A stretch of 64,000 bases of DNA from the NCBI GenBank assembly GCA_951406725.2, contig OX597822.1, forward strand, positions 54,436,001-54,500,000, read 5' to 3'. The stretch comes from Octopus vulgaris (lineage: Eukaryota). Below, piece after piece: positions 5,801 through 54,925 of the stretch (the first letter of the stretch is position 1; the number at the start of each line of letters is the position of its first letter). The notes beneath the pieces were generated by a model. That model did no database searches. It was not told the DNA's origin and saw only the letters and a list, made by a program, of their open reading frames with translations. The position numbers and the translations under genes were made by a program.

Positions 5801-6145
5801 TATTATCCATTTTATTAATATAGGGTCGATTGTCGATTAAGCAAGGGTTTCAAGAGCTGGATTGGGGTGGGAGCCCTGATGGAGTGTATACCTAAAGCAC
5901 GAAGACGCAGTGTGTGACGCAGAATGGTAGTTTTGCCTGGGGCCTTCAACTATCATTATGAAGTAAATATTTACATTTCAGAGTTCCTCTATTATCCGTT
6001 TTATGAATATAGGGTCAATTGTCGATTAAGCAAGGGTTTCAAGAGCTGGATTGGGGTGGGGGCCCTGATGGAGTGTATACCTAAAGCACGAAGACGCAGT
6101 GTGTGACGCAGAATGGTAGTTTTGCCTGGGGCCTTCAACTATCAT
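5768..6145. repeat. Tandem duplication, two units of ~187-190 bp
   Basis: CATTATGAAGTAAATATT...GGGCCTTCAACTAT occurs twice head-to-tail with few differences. Confidence 0.9.
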
Positions 6146-6392
6146 CTACGGAACGGGGGATATGTATCCATTTAACGATAAGAAATTTCTTTGATAGAAC
6201 CTGAAAGCCCGTCGGATGGTATTTCATCTTGATATATGGTGAAGTTAATCCATTGCCATGTTTAATAACTTTACTGTGATTGGGTGTCTTTAGAGTCCGG
6301 AACAGGTCTGAAAATAAGTTCTTCCTACCGTGCTATCTGAAAAACAAAAGGAAAAATTTCCCAAAAGTATATAAGAAAACAAAACAAAACAA

Positions 6393-6453
<61 letters not shown>

Positions 6454-6499
6454 GATGCATATATATATATATACTCTTTCGCCCCAACTTTCTCTCACT

Positions 6500-6627
6500 C
6501 TTTCTTCCTGTTTCTTGAGTAACGCTGCAATGGACTGGCGTCCCATCCAGCTGGGGGGAACACATACGCCACAGAAACCGGGAAACCGGACCCATGAGCC
6601 TGGCTAGGCTTGAAAAAGGGCGCATTA
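6500..6627 (+). mobile_element. SINE 3' part with Meta-domain-like core
   Basis: CTGCAATGGACTGGCGTCCCATCCAG...CAGAAACCGG resembles the MetaSINE conserved domain. Confidence 0.45.
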
Positions 6628-6688
6628 AAAATATATATATATATATATGCATACATATATACACACACAGATACTCACATATATATAC

Positions 6689-6723
<35 letters not shown>

Positions 6724-6724
<1 letters not shown>

Positions 6725-7518
6725 TAGCAGCTAAGTTCGGTTTCACCCGGTCGGTTTGGATGATATGGCTGTAAAACTTGCTCTGTGTAAGCATTCGACT
6801 TGTTTGGGCATGCTTACGTCAAAAAACAATTTTAGAATGACTTTTTTTCTGTCAAAACGCTAAAATTAACTGACCAACAAAAAAGAAAAAAACAACCAAG
6901 ATTCAACCAAATGAAACCCAAATACTAAGCGAACAAAGATGAACCATCCCACTTCCATTGCGCGGGCATACGCACACGCACACAAACACACATATTCACA
7001 TACCACCCCTTTTACATACCCACACATATATTCACACAAAGTTGAAACGCTGTTTGATTTATTTTTTCAGCGTACAATTTTCATCATTCCACTACCAAGC
7101 ATGACATCACCCCTTCCTTTCTTATTCATAAACACAAGAGTATTATTATAGTAGATTATCTCGGTAACCATGGGAGCTAAAAAGAAAATATGACCTCACC
7201 CCTTCCTTCCTTATTCTTATTCATAAACACAAGAGTATTATTATAGTAAATTATCTCGGTAACCATGGGAGCTAAAAAGAAAATATTACGCCACCCCTTC
7301 CATCCTTATTCATCTATCACCCCTTCCTTTCTCATTCATAAACACAGGAGTATTATTATAGTAGATTCTTTCAGTAACCATAGGAGCTATGAAAAACGTA
7401 CAAAGCCCAGCATCACCACCGGATCATTCTGTGTAATTTTTCGCGCAATTCCACCCAGCCGTTTGACCGTGAATCTCAAGACAAGAAAGAATCACCCATG
7501 TCAAATTTATATGTATAG
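6724..7518 (-). mobile_element. Non-autonomous Helitron with internal subrepeats
   Basis: Same terminal hairpin as 4499; three related subrepeats at ~7105-7395; minus-strand 5' end TCTATAC. Confidence 0.6.
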
Positions 7519-7616
7519 ATATAAATATAGGGATGGTATTATTAAAATACCGTCACGAGTGGCAAGCGAATTGTCAGGAGTACAAATTAACAAAATATAT
7601 ACACACAATATTAGAT

Positions 7617-7850
7617 ATATTTCTTTACTACCCACAAGGGGCTAAACACAGAGGGGACAAACAAGGACAGACAAAAGGATTAAGTCGATTACATCGACCC
7701 AAGTACGTAACTGGTACTTAATTTATCGACCCCGAAAGGATGAAAGGCAAAGTCGACCCCGGCGGGATTTGAACTCAGAACGTAACGGCAGACGAAATAC
7801 GGCTAGGCATTTCGCCCGACTTGCTTACCTTTCTGCCAGCTCGCCGCCTT
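7617..7850 (-). mobile_element. SINE family B (Nin-domain-like core), full length
   Basis: Reverse complement of 34357-34577; core GTCGACTTTGCCTTTCATCCTTTCGGGGTCGATAAATTAAGTACCAG. Confidence 0.85.
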
Positions 7851-8022
7851 CAATACACTATTAGATATGTGCATATATACAGTAGGGCACTACATGAGCA
7901 TCTACATCGCTAAAAATAGACGTCAAAAATACTTCTATGCCACCGAATAGTCACAAATCTATTACAGACTTGATAAAAAATTCCAGTGAACAATAATAAC
8001 ATCAATAGTAATGCTGGTCAAC

Positions 8023-8077
8023 TTGGTACCGGTTTCGAAATTAGCGTCAAATAGGCGCCTAATTTCTCATCAGCCAA
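8023..8077 (-). ncRNA. Minimal type I hammerhead ribozyme, intact
   Basis: UUGG-CUGAUGA-GAAAUUAG-loop-CUAAUUUC-GAAA-CCGG-UA-CCAA; helix I 4 bp, helix II 8 bp, palindromic ACCGGU helix III. Confidence 0.85.
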
Positions 8078-8411
8078 AAGTCTGCCAGCATTTACAACTA
8101 AAATTACCCTCCCCTCATGCCTTGAAAAGTTTGCTTGGAGTGATCAAGCACTAAGGAACACAAACGAAAGCGTGAAAAATTTAAATACCGCCACACTATA
8201 AAAGGTCAAGTTATTTCTGATGTAAGGGAGATAATTAGTATAAACTCTATAGATTTCGAATCTTAGCGCAACAATGATTTTCTGTTTATTATTTGTGTGT
8301 GAGTCCTGATTGATTAGAATCATGCAGGTTTTCCAGAGGTGACCATCCACTCATTTTCTTAAGATATAGAATGTGTCAGTGTACATTATCTAATGTGTCC
8401 TTTCTAAACAT

Positions 8412-8850
8412 TGGCGCAGGCACAGTTGTGAGGCTAAGAAGCTTGCTTTGCAATCACGCAGTTATGGGTTCACACTCATTGTACACAATCTTGGGTGTCT
8501 TCTGCTATTGCCCCAGGACGACCAATACCTTGCGATTGAAATTTGGTTGATAGAAACTGTGCGGAAGCCTGTCGTATATGTCTTTATCCTTCACTTGCTT
8601 CAGTCATTAGACTGCGGCCATGCTGGGGTACCGCCTCGAAGAAATTTAGTCGAACAAATCAACCTCAGTATTTATTTTTTAAAATCTAGTACTTATTCTA
8701 TCGGTCTCTTTTGTCGAACTGCTAAGTTACGGGGACGTAAACACACCAGCGCCGGTTGTCGAGCGGTGGAGACACACACACGTATGACGGGTTTCTTCGG
8801 TTCTGTCTACCAAAGCCATTGACAAAGCTTTAGTCGGCCCGGAGTGTTTC
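8412..8850. mobile_element. Two decayed family A SINE pieces in opposite orientation
   Basis: Head and body on + (8412-8580), then tail and body on - (8590-8850). Confidence 0.6.
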
Positions 8851-9712
8851 GTGGTGGGACTATATATATATACATTAGCGGTGTGCAGTCGAGACATGCT
8901 AGTCAGGTACTGCATGAACGTTGATTTTTAAATTGCTCAAAGTCAATTTAAGAATGTAATGCATTTATAACCACATTGGAAAGTTGTCCAAATTATTGGA
9001 AACTGAGCTAAAATAATTACTTTGTTTCAAAGGAAACCTGTCCAGATTGATACTTCGCTGAGTTTCCATTTTACTTTCACCAGGCATGCTTAAACGCATT
9101 TGGAATCTTTTGTCCCTCACCTTTCGCCTGTAAGATTCTTTTTTATCTCGATAAAATAATTACGGAAGGCATGCTTTCAGAAAAAACCCATGTTTTGGTT
9201 TCTCCTCCATTTCTACCATTTCTTTTTTGTTAGCAATTCTTTGTAATTGATGTCGCTAACGAGATAGGCTAAATGATTGAATGGGTTTGACTCTTTGACC
9301 CGTAATAATTTCGACCAAAACATATCAAGAATCCCATAATTCTCACTTAGTCAGCTCAAATGTTGTCGTGACTTTGGAACATCTATTTCGCTCTGTCGTA
9401 AGTTTTGAAATTATTATCATTAACCACCCTCTTTGTATTGATAAAAAAAAAAATCTGAAATCAGAAATGTAATATAGCTAATTAATCTTTCCTTGATTTA
9501 CTAAAATTATCTTTCCGTTCTGTTGAAACTGATTTACAATTCAAGATCGCAGTAAAATGAGGTATACTGTAACAAAGTGAAATTAAAGTGTTTTTTTCTT
9601 TCTACAAAATGAAACTTAAGAGTTACAAAAAATATGAGAGCAGGAATAACAGCCAAATATCAAACAAACTCTTTTTTGCAACTGCAAGTGATTTTTCTAC
9701 AAAATGAATACT

Positions 9713-10093
9713 CTCTTTTACTCTCTTTTACTTGTTTCAGTCATTTGACTGCGGCCATGCTGGAGCACCGCCTTTAGTCTTATTCTTTGTAAGCCCAGTA
9801 CTTATTCTATCGGTCTCTTTTGCCGAACCGCTAAGTGACGGGGACGTAAGCACACCAGCATCGGTTGTCAAGCAATGCTAGGGGGACAAACACACACAAA
9901 CACATACATACACATATATACATATATACGACGGGCTTCTTTCAGTTTCCGTCTACCAAATCCACTCACAAGGCATTGGTCGGCCCGGGGCTATAGCAGA
10001 AGACACTTGCCCAAGATGCCACGCAGTGGGACTGAACCCGGAACCATGTGGTAGGTTAGCAAGCTGCTTACCACACAGCCACTCCTGCGCCTA
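9713..10093 (-). mobile_element. SINE family A, full length
   Basis: Reverse complement of 22311-22680 including head AGGCGCAGGAGTGGCTGTGTGGTAAG. Confidence 0.9.
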
Positions 10094-10718
10094 TTGAAAT
10101 TACTTTGAAAGTTGAAATTACTTTGAAATTACTTTGAAATCTTGAAAGTTTAAAAAATTATGCGTGCAGAAATCTCCAACAAACTCTTTTTTACAACTTT
10201 CTCACAGTAAACCTCATTTTACTGCGGGAAATTTCTCTGAAAGAAATCATTACAGAAAGATTACGTATTTCTTTCATTATTTTACTGCAGTTTTTTTTTT
10301 TTCGTCCAACAAATTCCTGTGACATGTAGGTATTATTTTTAGTATGTGTATAGCCTGCTTGAAGGCCGTAGAATTGGGAGGGGAGGGGTGGGGTAATCTT
10401 TTGGGAAAAATTGAAATTTTACAAACAATTTTTTTTCAAAATCATAATTTCCGTATTTTTCTACGTATTTCCCACTAAAAAAAAAAAAAATTTCTGGAAA
10501 AAGCGAAAAATTAAGAAATGGGGGTGGGGATTGAAATTCTGAAGTTGCGATTTTCTTCATTTTCTTTTTCAGAACCGAAATCTCCGAAAACATGGGTTTC
10601 GGTTTTAAAAAAAAAAAATTAAGGATAAGGGAGGGGTTGGGTTACGTCTCCGCCATACGCACCAAGTATTTATTGCATGATCAGCCTCAGAAGTCACCGC
10701 ACGCCATTGATATATATA

Positions 10719-11418
10719 TACGTGAATTATTTTTGAGTAGGGAGATTCTTCTTAAAGTAGTAGAAATGGCTAAAGAAACTTTTTGGCTGCTATTTCTAAA
10801 AATGTCAGTATGTGGCAAAGTAAATTATTTTATTGAGCCCTTAATTATATAACGTAATATTTTGAATACGCCTTGAATGGTCCTTTTACATACTGAACAC
10901 TACTTGGTGAAATTAATTAATAACTAATTGATTTTACCCTTAATTATTGATAATACAATTCCTTTCTCCCTGTTCCTCTTTTACTGCGGTTCTCACCGTT
11001 ATAACCATGTTTACTCGACAACTCACGTGGATGGAAGGGGGAAATACATAAATTCTTTACTTGTACTGTTTGAATTCGCTAGCACTACCAGTTTGGAGAT
11101 GTTCGTCTGAGGTGATTCATGTCGGATGGGTATGTTCATTATTTTTAGTGCTTTCAAATCCAAATTAAGAAATGTTGAGCTGACGAAAGAAATGTCGAGT
11201 TTTAATTCGGCTAATCTAGAAAAGTGAGCGTTCTCAAATAATCTTTGTACATGTGATATTTTAGTTGTTTTCCCTCCAGATCTACGTAAATTATTTTTGA
11301 GTAAGCACTATCAGGGAGATTCTTCTTAAAGTAGTAGAAATGGCTAAAGAACTTTTTGGCTGCTATCTCTAAAAATTTCAGTTTGTGGCAAAGTAAATTA
11401 TTTTACTGGGCCCTTAAT

Positions 11419-11425
<7 letters not shown>
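10719..11425 (+). mobile_element. Non-coding HHR element with pLTR-like direct repeats
   Basis: ~135-bp direct repeats at 10719-10852 and 11283-11425; HHR at 11175-11237; TA tracts on both flanks. Confidence 0.65.
11175..11237 (+). ncRNA. Type I hammerhead motif, slightly decayed
   Basis: UUGAG-CUGACGA-...-GAAA-AGUGAGCG-UU-CUCAA; perfect 5-bp helix I; mismatches at the base of helices II and III. Confidence 0.6.
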
Positions 11426-11491
<66 letters not shown>

Positions 11492-11704
11492 ATAGTTTGA
11501 GAAGCGGTAACTCGACAAATCTGCAAATGATAATATTTTAAAAGCTTACAAACGATTACCATATATTGACTAAAAGAAAATAGTCTAATATTGGCGGATA
11601 ATAAGCCCTCGACAGAAAAAGGTGGGTTTTCCGCTTATAAAATATCATTATTATTTATAGAATATATATTAGTCTTTTGTTTTTATATTAAGTTATAATG
11701 ATTT

Positions 11705-11912
11705 CAAAATTTGGCACAGGGCCAGAATTTTTGAGGGGAGGGAGAAGTCAGTTACATCGACCCCTGTGCTTCACTAGTACTGTTTTATCGACCCCGAAAG
11801 GATGAAAGTTAAAGTCGACCTCAGTGTTATTTGAACTCATAACTTAAAGAAAGAAGAAATGCCGCTAAGCATTTTGCGCAGCGTGCTAACGATTCCACCA
11901 GCTTGCCGCCGC
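11705..11912 (-). mobile_element. SINE family B, decayed
   Basis: TTTATCGACCCCGAAAGGATGAAAG core plus reverse-complement head. Confidence 0.75.
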
Positions 11913-11990
11913 CTTATTTTAAGTTATAATAAAAACAATTTTACTAGAAGCTTAAAGATTATTCAATTCTTTTTGTAGACTACATATTTA

Positions 11991-12122
11991 TTATTCTTTA
12001 ACAAGAATACTATTGATAGTGACTTCGAAGTTTCGGCTTGCTGAACCACTGTCGGACAGTGATGATGGGGTTAGTAGGTCGAAACTTTGAAGTCATTCAA
12101 TATTATCCGTATTAAAGAATAA
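11991..12122. repeat. Imperfect fold-back hairpin
   Basis: TTATTCTTTAA...GACTTCGAAGTTTCGGC pairs with GTCGAAACTTTGAAGTC...TTAAAGAATAA. Confidence 0.75.
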
Positions 12123-12697
12123 CTTACATACATACAAGCATACATACTTTTAATGGCTTCTGTCGTAGGACTGCGGCCATGCTGTAGCACCGCCTTAATT
12201 CATTTTCTTTCAGTTTTGTCGTCGCCTTATGGCTAGAAATTTGATGTACGATTGAGTGTAGCAGATGATCTTCCCCGAGGGTATCATGGTTGACCGGATC
12301 AGCCAATCATTTGTCGTTAGAAGTTTATCCATTGTTTTATTTTATTTGTATGTTTCCGTAGAGGTTCCTCTTATATTTCAGATTTCTGTTGGCAGGCGTT
12401 TAAACAAACTCTAAATATCAGACTGGTAAAATAGAGTGTTTTTGCTTGTGATTTCAAAGGTGGTATATTTGGAGGCAGACAGTATTTACCAGTTCGTGTA
12501 TTACAATTCTCTGCAATACCGAAATTCAGGACATGCACCCCCAAGATTTTTCATGTGTATATAATACGGTTTCGAATCTAAGCATGGAAAAAGGAAGTGT
12601 TAGTTTTTTTTGTTGTTTTTTTTAGAAAACATAAAAACGGAGAAGCACACTCTAAGAACTAGAGCCGTCTATATTTATTACTGGTGAAGGCCTGTTT

Positions 12698-12765
12698 ATA
12701 GGGTTACCCTGGGTTTCTCGCCATAAAGAGAAAGAGTATATTTATGGCGTATCATCAGACCCTAT
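12698..12765 (-). ncRNA. Type I hammerhead ribozyme, intact
   Basis: AUAGGGU-CUGAUGA-UACGCCAUAAA...UUUAUGGCGA-GAAA-CCCAGGG-UA-ACCCUAU; 7-bp helix I; AATAAA ~20 nt downstream. Confidence 0.85.
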
Positions 12766-13534
12766 GACTTGTTGGCCTATGGTCTCTTTAAAGTATGGAG
12801 GGGAAATGAACCAGATATAAAGAACGGGGAGTTATCTCCCTCTTCTGGTAGTCATCGGCTGGTCATTGGCTTCAAGCTATGTCGTCTTCTTTCGGCTACG
12901 CCATCTGTCGGCTGTGAGGTTAGAAGGTAGTGGGTTATTTCCCATTCTCGTCAATCAATTTCCAGCCGTGGTGTAAATATTATCGCTAATACTGCTATTA
13001 TCGTTAATATGTGGTGCCCAAAACGCTACTTGGAGTTGCCTAGTCGACTAGTATATCCTTAGTTATGGCCAGTCAGAAAAGTTACCATTTTTTTCACGTC
13101 TACTCTTGCACTTGGCAGTGGAGGCTACTCAACTAGCCTTCTGATAAAATCACATAGCCTCTTTACTCATGCAGATAAAATAAAATCTTAGCGTGTTTAA
13201 AATAATAAAATAAAGTCTCGAAACGTAAAAACGTAATAAAAAAACCCATTGTGAGGAACAAAGTTACCTCCCCTTGAACTCCTCCAGCTATGGCCGAAAT
13301 GTGGTCATCTATTTGTTAACTCGCATTTGAGTGTCGCATAATGTCATTTGCACAACACCTACTGAACAGTAAAGTGAAAATCGAGTACATTACATGTATA
13401 AAATCAACAGCAAATGTAATAACATCATAAGATTACGTGAAGTATTCCTACACAATTTTTTTGAATGTGCGGCTGGTCCTTTAACAGAGATTTAGAGGGA
13501 AAATATCGATCACAACTGCGAAAACCAACCATGC

Positions 13535-14320
<786 letters not shown>

Positions 14321-14559
14321 ATCTACTCACATAAACGCGCACACAAATAAAACAAAAGCACACAAATGCACACACATAGTACGGACGACTAGAGATTAAG
14401 AAAATTCCGGCGAATATTTCAGTCAGCAAGTATACCATGTAGCAAACCTGGTTATCAGAATGTCAAGGGAGATAATTCAGAATCTATATTCATTGAATCC
14501 ACAGGACGTTTATTATAGACTTTAAATCGAAGCAAATTTACTAATCAATCATTGGGTGC

Positions 14560-15150
14560 ATTTATCGCAGAGTATAATAGTAAATAGACGAATGAACGCA
14601 GATAGTATAACATAACTTTATTAAAGGTTACGGTCGTTTCAATAGCTAGTGGAGCTATTTCATCAATTTACACATTAATTTGGACATTAAAAGAAATTAT
14701 GTAAATCTATTCAATAATAAATTAATTGACCAGCGTTTGTTCATCGGAATAGAAGCAAATAATAAATTAGTGCTGACCCCTAGATAATATCGGGTCATCT
14801 CCAAATAAATCTTAAGTCAATTAGATACATTAATAAAGGATAAAAATTAGTTACATTAGTTACGAAATGAGTGATTGGCGGGTTACACAACAAATAATTC
14901 AAGCGACGGGGTAGAATTAATAAGATACGAACGTTACCATTAATATTTGTTGAATCAAGGTAAACTAGCTATGGGGATTTTTTCTTGGAAATTTTAAGAA
15001 AGTTTTATTAAGTAAGTTTGAGTAACGGATTAGTAACTCGTTATGCTCATTAATTAAACTAGACCTACATTTAAGAATTTCCAAAGCCTCTCTTCAACAC
15101 AAATTACAGCTACTATCTCGAGCCTCCAGTTGATATATTTTAACTAGATT
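14560..15150 (-). mobile_element. Penelope-like element 3' remnant
   Basis: Translates SCNLC*REALEILKCRSSLINEHNEL, resembling the PLE GIY-YIG C-terminal CxLC..E..I..LN..E pattern; followed by a decayed HHR and AATAAA. Confidence 0.5.
14626..14668 (-). ncRNA. Decayed hammerhead motif
   Basis: UUGAUGA-AAUAGCU-ccacu-AGCUAUU-GAAA-C-GACC-G-UA; C3>U; helix I lost. Confidence 0.55.
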
Positions 15151-15270
15151 AGATCTTCGAGGAAAAGGCTTCGAGCGCATGCGCTACGTATTACATTTTG
15201 TGTGCGTGTGTGTTTGTGCGTGTATGATTGTATGTGTGTGTATATGCAGGTTAGTATTATAGTGTGTGTT

Positions 15271-15342
<72 letters not shown>

Positions 15343-15396
15343 GCTAGCTAGCTATCTAGCTATCTATCTATCTATCTATCTATCTAGCTAGCTATC

Positions 15397-15457
<61 letters not shown>

Positions 15458-16502
15458 TTATCTACATACATACATCCAGCCACTCTCGTCCCCACACATG
15501 CGCACACGCAAACAAAGAGAGGAAGGAATGGTTACAAACATTAGTATACACGTATTGGACAGATAATATCAAAGTGATATAAATAAATTTATAGAGTAAA
15601 TATATATCACCATGTTACCATGGTGTATATCTATCCCATTTATTACATCCTTAAGTATCGAATCACTGTTCTATGTTCTCTCTAAAACGACAATCAAGCA
15701 GTAAAGAAGTCCGTCCTCGCACATGTAGCAACGAGTTCGTTTTATTAAAAAATTTTTCTCTCTGTCATTGATATTATATATATTTTCTTGTTATTCGTAC
15801 TACGTTTGCTTATTCTATATTGCATTTATTTTATCTCACAATTTTTACATTATTTTCTTTCATTTTTTTTTTTTTGATCTTGTCATTTTCCTTAACGTTT
15901 CTTTGTATCTGCACAATTTATTCAAATGTAAAGAAAGAAAATAAAAGAAAATAAAAAAAAAGCTGGTCTGCGTTTTTTATAAGGAGAAAAAAGCTAAACA
16001 AATATATACAAGAACGACAACACCGACTGACTAAGTGAAGAACGAAGAAACGAAGATATAATTGATATGACATTTTGATGTACGTCAAATTATCTTGCAA
16101 AACACTCCACATCAACCCACGTATATCGTAGCTGGTGATGTCGTTGTCATCGTAGACGTCATTTAACTAGCTTTGATCAAGTGAATGTAATCTTGATGAA
16201 AAAAGCATTCCACTTATGACCATCTCGTCTCTTGGAGGATGTTTTCCGTTTGAGTAGTAGAGTACTTAGTTGCTTAAAATTTTTTTCTACACAGATTAAA
16301 TTTTGTATGCTTTGTCTTATACGTTCTACTTGTTCCAGTCATCAGACTGCGGCCATGCTGGGGCATCGCTTTGAAGAATTTTTAAAGCCTGGTACTTATT
16401 CTATCGATCTATTTTGCCGAACCGCTAATTATGTGGTCGTAAACACAACAAAACCGGTTGTCAAGCGGTAGTGGATAACACACACACACACATATATATA
16501 TA

Positions 16503-17675
16503 TGACGGCCGTCCACTCGTGATTGCGGAAGACCATTGCTGACCTTTAGGAACATTGTGCTCTCTAAGACTAACTTATATTTTGTATTTTCGGCTCCGTT
16601 GGTGGCTAAAGAGCCCTGCTCTTGACAAACATACACGACTGCAAACATTGCAAACCAAACTTTCTCCATTCACTACGCTAGTAGTGCGCTTTTGAGCAGC
16701 ACGCTTAATTTCTTCATGAAGAATACATGCTCTTTCAAAAATGTCGACCCCACTCTTTAACCTACTTCCTCCATCTGTGGCAATGACAGGCATTGCTCTC
16801 CCAGTTGGTCTCCTGCATATCACAGGCATTTAATGAGGACTTGACATAGTCCTTAAATCGCTGCCTGGTTTCTGTCAGGGTCTCTTTCCACTAACAAGTT
16901 CCTCATATAGCATCTGTTTATGGATCCTGCTATCCTTCATTCTGATAAGGTGTCCAGTCCAATGTAACCGGTGCTTGTGCACCATCGCCTCAATATTCAA
17001 CATATCACAGGTGGCGATCTGGCAGAAATGTTAGCTCGCCGGGCGAAATGCTTAGCGGTATTTCGTCTGTCTTTACGTTCTGTGTTCAAATCTGCCGAGG
17101 TCGACTTTACCTTTCATCCATTCAAGGTCGATAAATTAAGTGCCAGTTGCGTAGTGGGGTCGATCTAATTGACTGGCCCCTCCCCCAAAATTTCAGGCCT
17201 TCTGCCTAGAGTAGAAATAATCAAGATATTAGCTTTCTTCAAGACCCGTGTGTCTGGAGTTTTTGATGTCTAGCCAACATTCAGAATGTGTCTCAGACAT
17301 CTCTGATGGAAGCGTTCAACGACCTTTGCATAAAGTTTGTAAAAGGGTTCATGTATCACACGAGTAAAGGAGCGATGTCAGTGCACTTGCACGGTACACG
17401 GCAATTTTTGTTCGCCTTGTGAAGCCATGTTGGAACCAAACACGAGACTCAAGAGACCGGAAGGAATCAGTTGCTCTCTGTAGCCTGAAAGATATTTCAT
17501 AATCCTGAGAACAAGAACGGCTGAGAGTGCCTTCCCAGGTGGACAACTTTGTCTACCACTTTCAGTATTGTTCCTTCAACCATGATAGCTGGTTCCACTT
17601 ATAGATTTCCCGGTGCAGCAAATCGGTGCAAATTAAAGAGGCGGCCAGAAGATCAATACCTGACATATATTCCTA
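16503..17675 (-). mobile_element. 5'-truncated RTE LINE fragment, same family as 29352-32890
   Basis: Encodes ESLVCNVCSRVCLSRAGLFSHQR and LSRSCSQDYEISFRLQRA; collinear with 29352-30470; SINE insertion and internal deletion. Confidence 0.9.
17009..17218 (+). mobile_element. SINE family B nested in the RTE fragment
   Basis: Head GGTGGCGATCTGGCAGAAATGTTAG plus Nin-like core interrupts RTE homology. Confidence 0.85.
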
Positions 17676-29351: not shown

Positions 29352-32300
29352 GATGGCCGTCCACACGTGACCGAGGAAGACCATTGCCGACCTTCAGGAA
29401 CATTGTGCGCTCTAGGACTAAATTATATTTTGCATTTGCGGCTCCGTTGGTGGCTAATGAGCCCTGCTCTTGACAAGCATACATAACTGCAAACATTGCA
29501 GACCAAGCTTTCCCCATTCACTATACGAGCCGTGCGCTTTCGCGCAGCTCGCTTAAGTTCTTCATGCTGGATACGTGCTCTCTCAAAAGTGTCGAGCCCC
29601 TCCTTAACCTGCCTCCTCCATCTGTGGCGATGACAGGCATTGTTCTCCCAGTCAGTGTCCTGCATATCACAGGCCTTTAATGAGGACTTGACATAGTCCT
29701 TAAATCGCTGCCTGGTTTCTGTCTGGGTCCCTTTCCACTAACAAGTTCCCCATATAGCATCTGTTTAAGGATCCTGCTCTCCTTCATTCTAATAAGGTGT
29801 CCAGTCCAACGTAACCGGTGCTTGTGCACCATCGCCTCAATACTCACGATATCAGCTGTCCTCAGGACCTGTTTGTCTAGAATTTTTGAGGTCCAGCCAA
29901 CATTGAGAATGTGTCTGAGACATCTTTGATGAAAGCGTTCAAGGACCCTTACCTGGCGTTTGTACAGAGTCCATGTCTCACACGAGTAGAGAAGCGATGT
30001 CAGTACACAAGCACGGTACACAGCAACTTTTGTTCGTCTTGCGATGCCATGTTGGGACCAGGCACGAGACTGAAGAGACCGGAAGAAATTAGTTGCTCTC
30101 TGCAACCTGAAAGATATTTCCTCATCCAGGGAGCAAGAACGGCTGAGTGTGCTGCCCAAGTAGACAAACTTGTCTACTACCTTCAGAATTGTTCCTTCAA
30201 CCAAGATAGCTGGTTCCATATATGGATTTCCTGGTGCAGGCTGAAACATTACAACAGTCTTGTCCAGGCTAATGCTGAGTCCACATGCCCTGCAAGAAGT
30301 AGAAATGCAATTCACGAGTATTTACATGTCATCCACTGTATGAGTGACTAAGTCACAGTCATCTGCATGAAGGAGGTCACAAATAATCGACTGGGGAACC
30401 TTTGAATTGGTAGCAAATCGGCGAAGATTAAAGAGGCAGCCAGAAGATCGATATCTGACATATATTCCCGGAGAGCTAACCTTAGCAAAAGCATGAGTAA
30501 AAGCAGCAGCAAAGTACAAAGAAAAGAGAGTTGGGGCAAGGATATCACCCTGCTTGACACTATTCTCTACAGGAATGGGTCCCGCCATGGCACCACCAAC
30601 ATTGACCCAAGCCTCCATCCCATCATGAAATGATTTAATTATAGATACAAAGTGATACGGACATCCAAGTTTGCTAAGTATTTTCCATAGAAAGGCCCTA
30701 TTTACAGTATCAAAGGCCTTTGTTAAATCAATGAATACCAGGACAAGATCCATATTCTGCTCATAGCACTTCTGCATCTGTCTTGCTGTGAAAATCATAT
30801 CCATTGTCCCTTACCAGATCGGAAGCCACATTGAGATTCAGATAGGACATCATTTACGAGACACCCATTCAGACGAGTAAGAAGAATATTTGCCAGAACC
30901 TTGTCAGCAGCTGATAGTAGAGCAATACCTCTGTAGTTACCACATATTGTTCTGGCTCCTTTTCCTTTATATAGAGGAAGAATAATTGCACCCTTCCAGT
31001 CCTTAGGGATTGCACCATCCCTCCAGACTGCACTAATAATTTCATGAAGGGACTGTGTGATGCAATTACCACCAAATCGCAAGACCTCAGCACAAGTTCC
31101 ATCCTTTCCAGGTGCCCTACCAAGATTCAATTTACTTATTGATGTCATTACTTCATCTATTGAGGGCGAGGAGTCTAAGGAGCCAATGATAGGTCTTTGT
31201 TGCATAGTATCAATCACTGTTTCATCCACAACTGACTCATGGTTTAGGAGTTCAGAGAAGTGTTCGATCCAGCGACCTGTGATTTCTGTTGATTTAGTAA
31301 ATAGAGTGGAAGACTCCTTGGAAATCAAAGGAGCTGATGTGGAGCTCTTAGGTCCATAAGCTCGCTTCATAAGATGGTAAAGCTTCTTGCTGTCATTTGC
31401 ATCAGCAGCAGCCTGAACATTACGAGCAAGATACTCCCACCAAGAGTTCTGCATCTTCCTGAGAGATCGCTGTAGTAGTGATTTTACACTGTTATAGTGG
31501 GCAAGTGCACAGTAGACAGTTCTCTTCGCTGCAGCAACACACTGTGGGCATGGCACTTTACCACTAACAGTCGCTGAATTTCAGCATCATTCTCATCAAA
31601 CCAGTCTCTGTGTCTGGCAGTAACATACCCCAGTGTTTCGGCTGCACATTGAACAACCTGGTCTCGAAAATCTTCCCATGCTGCAGCAGTTTCAATGCTG
31701 GACAAGCGAGTCTGAAGCTCTTTCCTAACCACAACATCATATACCTTGTGGACATTTAGACGGCGAGGAATGTTGACTGGTCCTCTTCTCTCTTTCGCCC
31801 TAATCACCATTCGGAACTTTGCTCGCACCAGACTGTGGTCTGTCCAGCATTCTGATCCATGCAAGGACTTGACATTACAAATGTCATAAATGTCGCGCTT
31901 GCGGATGATGACATAATCCAGCAAGTGCCAAACTTTGGACCTTGGATACATCCATGTTGTTGTGTGATCACCTTTGTGCACAAAATGGGTGCTTGCAATG
32001 TAAAGTCCATGTTCTTCGCAAAGCTCCAGTAGCACGAGACCATTGCTATTCCTTTTCCCTACTCCAAAACGTCCTAGAGAGTTCCATGTTTGCCAGTCTG
32101 TTCCAATCCTAGCATTAAAATCCCCCAGCAGAATGACTTTATCAGAATTGGGGATTTTTCTAAGTATGGCTCTCAGCTTGTTTTATCTTCATTACAGCTA
32201 GTCAAAGTAGGTGCACATAGGCAAACCGCTTACCTTTCAAGTGCAACCGTAGCGTCTTTATACGTTCATTTATAGGAACAGAGAGCTCTTCCAACTTCTT

Positions 32301-32887
32301 AAGGATATCAGATCGGACTGCAAAACCAACACCAGCCTCTATGCGCTCCTCCTTCTGCCTTCCTTTCCATAAAAGGTGTATCCACCTCCTATTTCCTCAA
32401 GCTGACCATCACCTTCTATAAGAGTCTCTGAGAGTGCAGCTATATCAATTTTATAACGGTTCAGCTCACGAACAACAAGTGCAGTGCGTCTCTCAGGCCT
32501 GCAAACACTCTTGTTGTCCAACGGAGTGCGCACATTCCAACATGAAATGTTTAAGTTCCGTCCAGATTTTATAGATAAAAGACTCTTTGTTTTTCGAGCG
32601 CAGGGTGGACATCCGCCAGTCGCGCTAAACTGACCAGATATGGAAAGACAGGCAATTTTTGGTTCACCTTTTCTAGAACCTCTCCGGTCTCCGGGTGAGC
32701 AGTGCTCTCTCCAAATGGAGTTGTTCAGACACCCATGCAGCAACCGAATCCTACCGCTGTCTTGGGCGACATGGAGACGACTTCATATCTAGCATGGGTC
32801 ACCTACGTGCAGGTCGCTGACTACATGCCACCAACCCGTCAGGTCTGCATGCTTCATCACCTTCCCATCGCCGCAGGACTTCCGAAT

Positions 32888-54012: not shown

Positions 54013-54200
54013 TATATATAAAACTGAGAATGTGTGTCTGTATGTGTGAATCACTAAAAGTCGAGAACTACAAAACCGATTTCATTCAAATTTTACACAT
54101 GCCTTACTTAGGCTCCATGCAGTGTCATAGGCCAAAAACATTTCAACTTCTTGCCTAATGCGAGCCCAGAGTAATCTCTTATGACTTACACTATTTCAGT
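54013..54200 (+). mobile_element. Helitron 5' fragment (1342-2762 family)
   Basis: Reverse complement of ~2450-2762 segments. Confidence 0.7.
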
Positions 54201-54225
54201 ATATATATATATATATATATATATA

Positions 54226-54844
54226 TACGTAAATATAAGAGAGTGACCACTATGTGGTCGACTCTAGCACTAAAAATAGATCCGCTACGGTTTCAGCCGC
54301 GAAGAATTGTTTCCGATGAAAGTTAGCACAACTATTAGCGTAACAGAGCAAATAAAAAATAACAAAAATGCAGATTAATTCAGGACAATTGTTTCGCCAT
54401 TAATAAATTATGCAATTTTACTCACATAACATATCTGTAGCTCCTCAGCTGAATTTGTCTAAAATACAATTTACTCAACCGCATACCAGATTTTACCAAA
54501 ACGATAAACACACATGCGGTTCAGTCGATTGCATTCGCCGTTATAATTCAAGTGCCCCCGCCAAAGCCTGCCAAAATTCACGGAAACAGATACTACATCA
54601 AGAATTAAATGCAGTATAATTACAATCAACTAATAAGGGTGAGAAAATTGGATACTAATTTAATAGTACCATCAATTTAACACCAAGTGGCTTAGTGCAT
54701 AAAAACCAGGAATACAATAAATTTTATACGTAAATATAAGAGAGACACCACTATGTGGTCGACTCTAGCACTAAAAATAGATCCGCTACGGTTTCAACCG
54801 CGAAGAATTGTTTCCGATGAAAGTTAGCACAACTATTAGCGTAA
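54226..54844 (-). mobile_element. Non-coding HHR element with pLTR-like direct repeats (period ~501 bp)
   Basis: ~118-bp direct repeats at 54226-54343 and 54727-54844; intact HHR between them; TA tracts on both flanks. Confidence 0.75.
54377..54455 (-). ncRNA. Type I hammerhead ribozyme, intact
   Basis: AAUUCAG-CUGAGGA-GCUA...UGGC-GAAA-C-AAUU-G-UC-CUGAAUU; 7-bp helix I. Confidence 0.85.
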
Positions 54845-54847
54845 ACG

Positions 54848-54925
<78 letters not shown>

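What the first reader, a model, noticed from the sequence alone, without database searches (positions are those of the whole stretch)
54226..54844. Best retrozyme-like candidate: ~501-bp unit with an intact HHR and terminal redundancy
Seen: near-identical ~118-bp direct repeats, a complete HHR (7-bp helix I, AAUU loop, GUC), no credible ORF and TA tracts on both sides. The architecture matches 10719-11425 although the sequence is different. Inference: ~1.2 rounds of reverse transcription of a ~500-nt circular or tandem RNA.
Basis: partly seen in the sequence, partly recalled or inferred. Interest (0 to 1): 0.75.

Follow-up and report, generated by a model that had tools for sequence, protein, structure and literature searches.

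The report
Penelope-pasted retrozyme; ribozyme bounds its template
This is one of roughly 200 scattered copies of a small protein-free jumping element carrying a predicted self-cutting RNA (a known kind), and where its longest copies stop suggests that the enzyme likely copies a linear RNA trimmed by the upstream ribozyme rather than only an RNA circle.

Summary
In detail: two near-identical 120-bp direct repeats 501 bp apart, a type I hammerhead on the minus strand (Rfam 34.5 bits, gathering 34; cut 54384/54383), no ORF, TA tracts on both sides. It is one copy of a dispersed non-coding family (134 insertions mapped, about 200 estimated) whose helix I shows compensatory changes. The 'terminal redundancy' is a 5'-truncated partial tandem: 5' ends vary, 195 of 220 arms end at one of two fixed points about 105 nt apart, and 54 of 70 head-to-head insertions use one of each. 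That is the Penelope-like 'tail' footprint, also seen on coding Penelope-like elements of this genome (tails 27-35 nt). So it is a non-LTR retrozyme likely moved in trans by such an enzyme. The scan noted other such families in this genome before. New here: arms read through the nearer ribozyme junction (1 of 49 stop) but pile up at the second (7 of 16; 3 of 4 arms fetched afterwards), favouring a linear template cut upstream over a plain circle. This copy has one ribozyme, so it cannot release a monomer itself. Cleavage, expression and the partner enzyme are untested or unidentified.

The parts
54224..54849 (-). whole insertion: one arm of about 1.25 units, 5'-truncated, ending at fixed end A
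   Evidence: 2.2% from its subfamily majority
54725..54849 (-). upstream, 5'-truncated partial unit (pseudo-LTR-like repeat)
54224..54343 (-). downstream repeat; its last bases (54224-54227) are fixed 3' end A, inferred reverse-transcription start site A
   Evidence: 91 of 209 arms end at unit position 110-135
54615..54724 (-). 'tail' segment between site A and site B (about 100-110 nt); 54615-54625 is the second fixed 3' end B of the family, internal in this copy
   Evidence: 94 of 209 arms end at unit position 205-236
54377..54455 (-). type I hammerhead ribozyme (helix I 54455-54449/54383-54377; core 54448-54442; helix II 54441-54438/54399-54396; GAAA 54395-54392; helix III and palindromic loop 54392-54385; predicted cut 54384|54383)
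   Evidence: covariation
54200..54226 (.). (TA)n target tract at the 3' end
   Evidence: 113 of 131 A/B arm ends followed by TA-type repeat
54850..54924 (.). (TA)n tract at the 5' junction

Best explanation
This is a 5'-truncated copy of a dispersed, non-coding repeat family with a conserved type I hammerhead (a non-LTR retrozyme) that is likely pasted into (TA)n tracts by the enzyme of a coding Penelope-like element, which likely starts copying at two fixed internal points of an RNA that is continuous across the nearer ribozyme and likely cut at the ribozyme one unit upstream. Shown: family, ends, TA targets, two-armed structure, conserved ribozyme fold, read-through of the first junction, pile-up at the second. 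Inferred: a rare tandem source is transcribed; the enzyme nicks both strands of a TA tract; one 3' end primes at site A, the other at site B about 105 nt downstream; the cDNAs run variable lengths and are joined head to head, or one arm alone is kept, as here; RNAs cut at the nearer ribozyme are not used, whereas a cut (or folded) upstream ribozyme ends copying about 660 nt from A. Identity as a Penelope-moved retrozyme about 0.9; the linear-template step about 0.55.
For: Family: 68 matches from 40 scored of 2190 candidates; 175 exact matches of a 17-mer of the repeat, 0 for the control; about 200 insertions from 175/1.31/(39 of 60). Ends: 185 of 209 arms (127 insertions) end at A or B; of 70 head-to-head pairs 54 A+B, 1 B+B, 0 A+A, 15 with another end; 195 of 220 in the final 134. 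Coding elements with RT and C-terminal GIY-YIG show the same alternative ends, one arm with and one without the tail in L093, L099 and L219. PMC11167929 (parts 1-2 of 4 read): a Penelope-like protein cuts and extends both strands, starts at two internal sites that delimit the tail, and uses unprocessed RNA. Ribozyme under selection: 4 pairs changed on both sides, covariation above 500 of 500 shuffles in 12 chosen copies; core intact in 80 of 101 complete spans. One source per insertion: shared non-majority variants 27-36 per kb within against 3.4 between insertions; 1 clearly discordant pair of arms. First junction: 1 of 49 arms stops within 10 nt in the sample picked without the ribozyme. Second junction: 7 of 16 within 10 nt against 3 of 125 at the first, Fisher p 6e-6; scan test with raised background 8 of 600; 3 of 4 long arms fetched after the idea was noted stop 2-14 nt short of the cut.
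Against: No cleavage, RNA-end or circle data. Three arms overshoot the second cut by 5-14 nt with templated bases and 8 go further (3 end in the 5' strand of the ribozyme), so the end is not a hard wall. In the 10716-11425 family 0 of 3 second-lap arms stop at the cut (2 stop 64-74 nt beyond it). No B-ended two-ribozyme source without deletions was found, and only L010 had two intact cores among the arms tested. Upstream and downstream repeats show no recurring position-specific differences (8 recurrent, 13 opposite; 90 vs 99), which suits a circle equally. Long-arm sample is small (16-18) and drawn from best-scoring hits. No coding partner shares sequence with the unit.
Confidence: 0.55

Rival explanations
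1. Same element and enzyme, but the template is a covalently closed monomer circle: a two-ribozyme source releases a cut-to-cut monomer, a host ligase closes it, and the enzyme runs round it 0.1-3 times; second-lap stops at the ribozyme come from strand displacement stalling near the U-rich tract or the ribozyme region.
For: Metazoan retrozymes accumulate as circles (PMC7229834, passages and discussion read); free passage of the first junction; identical-by-source laps; circular unit folds with z -6.3 and keeps helices I and II; B arms cross the first junction although B-ended tandem sources are scarce; overshoots past the second cut.
Against: On a circle the junction is the same bond on both laps, yet stops are 3 of 125 against 7 of 16; no clear pile-up exactly one lap from A beyond AT microhomology.
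Confidence: 0.33
2. The repeat is only the orphaned 3' pseudo-LTR of an undetected coding Penelope-like family, the copies being deep 5' truncations.
For: Retrozymes derive from pLTRs (10.64898/2026.07.22.740005, parts 1-3 of 5 read); footprint identical to coding elements; only 4 coding families were sampled of 6136-17475 candidate hits.
Against: Long arms continue into another copy of the unit, never into an ORF; the 6 loci of 92 with nearby Penelope-like protein matches were inspected and are separate insertions beside the same TA tracts.
Confidence: 0.06
3. A LINE-type enzyme or DNA-level duplication made the copies; the ribozyme is incidental.
For: LINE fragments are common in the window; LINE twin priming also makes inversions (recalled).
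Against: No poly(A) or 3' repeat tail; two fixed internal ends; partial tandems; ribozyme covariation.
Confidence: 0.04

Closest known systems
Metazoan non-LTR retrozymes (Cervera and de la Pena 2020, PMC7229834; Li, Clavereau and Pollet 2026, 10.64898/2026.07.22.740005)
   Same: Non-coding unit with a type I hammerhead, short palindromic helix III, low GC, dispersed monomers and a few tandems, co-existing with Penelope-like elements.
   Different: Unit about 503-506 nt (170-400 in the 2020 paper, 51-972 in the 2026 one); 38-nt insert in helix II; almost all copies under 1.5 units with one ribozyme; two-armed insertions; circle not shown and partly questioned.
Penelope-like elements with C-terminal GIY-YIG (Craig et al. 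2021, PMC8557442; Frangieh et al. 2024, PMC11167929)
   Same: 5' truncation, partial tandems, inverted 5' arm, optional tail, AT-rich or (TA)n targets, hammerhead upstream of the 3' end.
   Different: No ORF; tail about 100-110 nt instead of 30-40 nt (27-35 nt in this genome's coding families); canonical ribozyme core whereas coding family A has the U3-A8 variant described in PMC4209133.
Non-autonomous Chlamys elements such as MRC1 (PMC8557442, passage seen)
   Same: Non-coding, form pseudo-LTRs and head-to-tail copies.
   Different: Those share 3' ends with their autonomous partners and lack canonical hammerheads; no such sharing was found here.

Membership tests
Type I hammerhead ribozyme (RF00163) | Conserved core with helices I-III, open helix I | tested here: met
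   covariation
Type I hammerhead ribozyme (RF00163) | Self-cleavage after GUC | not testable with these tools
   needs an assay; helix III predicted unstable as a monomer
Non-LTR retrozyme | Non-coding repeat unit with a type I hammerhead, many genomic copies | tested here: met
Non-LTR retrozyme | Tandem arrangement with two or more ribozymes (competent source) | tested here: inconclusive
   not met by this copy; 4 of 150 arms span two ribozymes, both cores intact in 1
Non-LTR retrozyme | Expressed as linear and circular monomer RNA | tested here: inconclusive
   only contigs of runs guessed to be RNA were available; they cannot show ends or circles
Penelope-like mobilisation | Variable 5' truncation, partial tandem, inverted 5' arm | tested here: met
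Penelope-like mobilisation | Two alternative 3' ends (tail), AT-rich target | tested here: met
   tail about three times the usual length
Penelope-like mobilisation | Sequence shared with the 3' end of a coding partner | tested here: inconclusive
   no BLAST match to families A-D; short resemblance of sites A and B to family D ends, 17 and 32 of 300 shuffles, among 12 comparisons
Autonomous Penelope-like element | ORF with RT and GIY-YIG | tested here: not met
Plant LTR retrozyme | Type III hammerhead inside fixed LTRs | tested here: not met
   type I, outside the repeat; 5' ends vary

The most novel reading that the evidence does not exclude
[quoted passage not shown] The about 105-nt spacing of the two start sites also shows that the tail length is set by the RNA fold, not by the protein.
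Probability: 0.35. Interest if true: 0.65.

Novelty: new member of a known kind. Interest (0 to 1): 0.42.

Why it matters
Animal retrozymes are assumed to move through circular RNAs using Penelope-like enzymes, but the template has not been shown, and the role of the hammerhead in Penelope-like elements is open (in vitro it was dispensable, PMC11167929). This family gives countable genomic footprints (two start sites, read-through of one ribozyme junction, stops at the next) that turn both questions into direct tests. As an element it is ordinary: one more retrozyme family in a genome where the scan has already noted several.

Tried and rejected
Expression: no RNA holder on record was listed; contigs of four guessed-RNA runs cover parts of the unit but cannot show ends, strand or circles; one contig begins at 54384, but a contig of a run of unknown kind begins at 54383, so this is not taken as evidence. 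A-to-I editing written into copies: five clustered A/G differences in helix I between subfamilies suggested it, but A>G does not exceed T>C in sense orientation (51 vs 60 shared, p 0.34; 122 vs 144 single, p 0.15). Two-template origin of this copy's repeats: its 3 differences are not shared as a set by other copies. Chimeric retrozyme/coding insertion at L183: rejected, a TA spacer and an older fragment. Enrichment of coding elements near copies (6 of 92 loci): no proper control, dropped. Partner search: GIY-YIG family search, one protein search and one short-DNA search gave four coding families, none matching. Ten loci from the ribozyme 17-mer search belonged to another repeat and were dropped; L029 was dropped as a duplicate of L027. 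The core-intact count had an off-by-one error and was redone; one search was swamped by TA repeats and redone. Literature searches found no paper on cephalopod retrozymes; bioRxiv supplements were not seen and could list such families.

Full report
Observation. The window holds two direct repeats of 120 bp (54224-54343, 54725-54844; 97.5% identical) between two TA tracts. On the minus strand, between the repeats, is a type I hammerhead: my motif scan found it as one of two hits in the window, with a 7-bp helix I, CUGAGGA, a 4-bp helix II around a 38-nt insert, GAAA, a 2-bp helix III with a palindromic AAUU loop and GUC, cut 54384/54383. Rfam RF00163 scores 34.5 bits against a gathering score of 34. 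The strand is strongly structured (z -5.3; -6.3 as a circle) and has no ORF above 69 aa. Unit positions below are u = 54845 minus window position. The genome has 2.8 Gb in 227 contigs; that it is an octopus is my inference from size and recall, not a tool result.

Family. A DNA search of the own genome gave 68 matches from 40 scored of 2190 candidates; exact patterns gave 27 and 105 matches in the ribozyme and 175 in the repeat, controls 0. I mapped 134 distinct insertions with 220 arms; capture arithmetic gives about 200. Two main subfamilies lie a median 2.9% from their own majority; this copy is 2.2% from subfamily II. Helix I changes in step between lineages: 4 pairs with changes on both sides, covariation above all 500 shuffles in 12 copies that I chose for diversity (related sequences inflate this control). 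The core is intact in 80 of 101 complete spans, partly by ascertainment.

Architecture. 5' ends are spread over the unit. 3' ends are not: of 209 arms, 91 end at u110-135 (A), 94 at u205-236 (B), 24 elsewhere; of 70 head-to-head two-armed insertions 54 are A+B, 1 B+B, 0 A+A. 113 of 131 A/B ends run into TA-type repeat. The window copy is a single A-ended arm of 626 nt; its 'terminal redundancy' is a truncated upstream unit. The element at 10716-11425 is an unrelated family built the same way. Coding Penelope-like elements are abundant (6136 GIY-YIG candidates, many 781-aa frames) and show the same two ends with tails of about 32, 27 and 35 nt. [quoted passage not shown] 10.64898/2026.07.22.740005 (parts 1-3 of 5) argues that animal retrozymes are non-autonomous Penelope derivatives; only 1 of its 9 tested dimers cleaved. 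I found no coding partner by sequence.

Template. Parts of one insertion that cover the same unit positions share non-majority variants 8-10 times more often than different insertions, so both arms and both laps come from one source. In a sample picked by the repeat alone (99 of the 100 listed pattern matches recovered), 49 arms reach the first ribozyme junction and 1 stops within 10 nt: templates are continuous there. At the second junction, one unit further, 7 of 16 arms stop within 10 nt and 10 of 18 within 20 nt, against 3 of 125 and 10 of 128 at the first in all arms (Fisher p about 6e-6; the all-arm figure for the first junction is biased low by ribozyme-based picking); a scan test with the raised background of long arms gives 8 of 600. 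I noted the idea before seeing four further long arms, of which three stop 2-14 nt short of the cut. This is what a linear RNA cut at the upstream ribozyme gives. Against a hard end: three arms overshoot by 5-14 templated bases, eight go further, the second family shows 0 of 3 stops at its cut, suitable tandem sources are rare, and no recurring differences between upstream and downstream repeats were seen. A circle with second-lap stalling remains a strong rival, in line with PMC7229834 (passages and discussion). Either way this copy, with one ribozyme, is not a source of monomers.

Expression could not be judged: only contigs of runs guessed to be RNA were offered. RNA editing fixed into copies was tested and not supported.

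Comparison and verdict. It meets the sequence-level features of a non-LTR retrozyme and of Penelope-type insertion; cleavage and circles are untested. PMC4209133 (passages) explains the weak palindromic helix III and the U3-A8 core seen in coding family A. Five library searches found no paper on cephalopod retrozymes. Earlier notes of this scan describe 360-, 485- and 490-nt families in the same genome with the same two-point footprint; none matched this sequence and none surfaced for the second-junction pile-up. New member of a known kind; interest 0.42, carried by the testable template signal.

Noticed in passing
window 10716-11425 (+): Second retrozyme-like family (unit about 564 nt, 2738 candidates), 3' ends at about 137-145 and 237-240, two-armed copies, hammerhead in most copies; the window copy has a damaged helix III.
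   Followed up: partly
window 8022-8078 (-): Another type I hammerhead-like motif (CUGAUGA, 8-bp helix II, CCGG loop, UA) of a third family.
   Followed up: no
L139, L151, L166, L167, L175, L176, L180, L187, L195, L196: A different TA-ended repeat family shares the 17 bases around the cut with this ribozyme but shows no canonical 5' core.
   Followed up: no
L088-L098 and other loci: Young coding Penelope-like family with many intact 781-aa frames, an upstream open frame of 250-480 codons, a long repeat-rich 3' region and a U3-A8 hammerhead variant about 70 nt before its 3' end.
   Followed up: partly
window 54340-54391 and 54623-54685: Contig depth in public runs is 10-100 times higher on these two segments, suggesting that they are shared with much larger related families.
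   Followed up: no
window 29677-32782 (-): Fragmented LINE-type ORF (endonuclease and reverse transcriptase motifs, recalled).
   Followed up: no
L006:1356-2848: Three-unit tandem whose two downstream units are identical over 476 nt and share a changed GAAA, while the upstream unit differs at 5 sites.
   Followed up: partly
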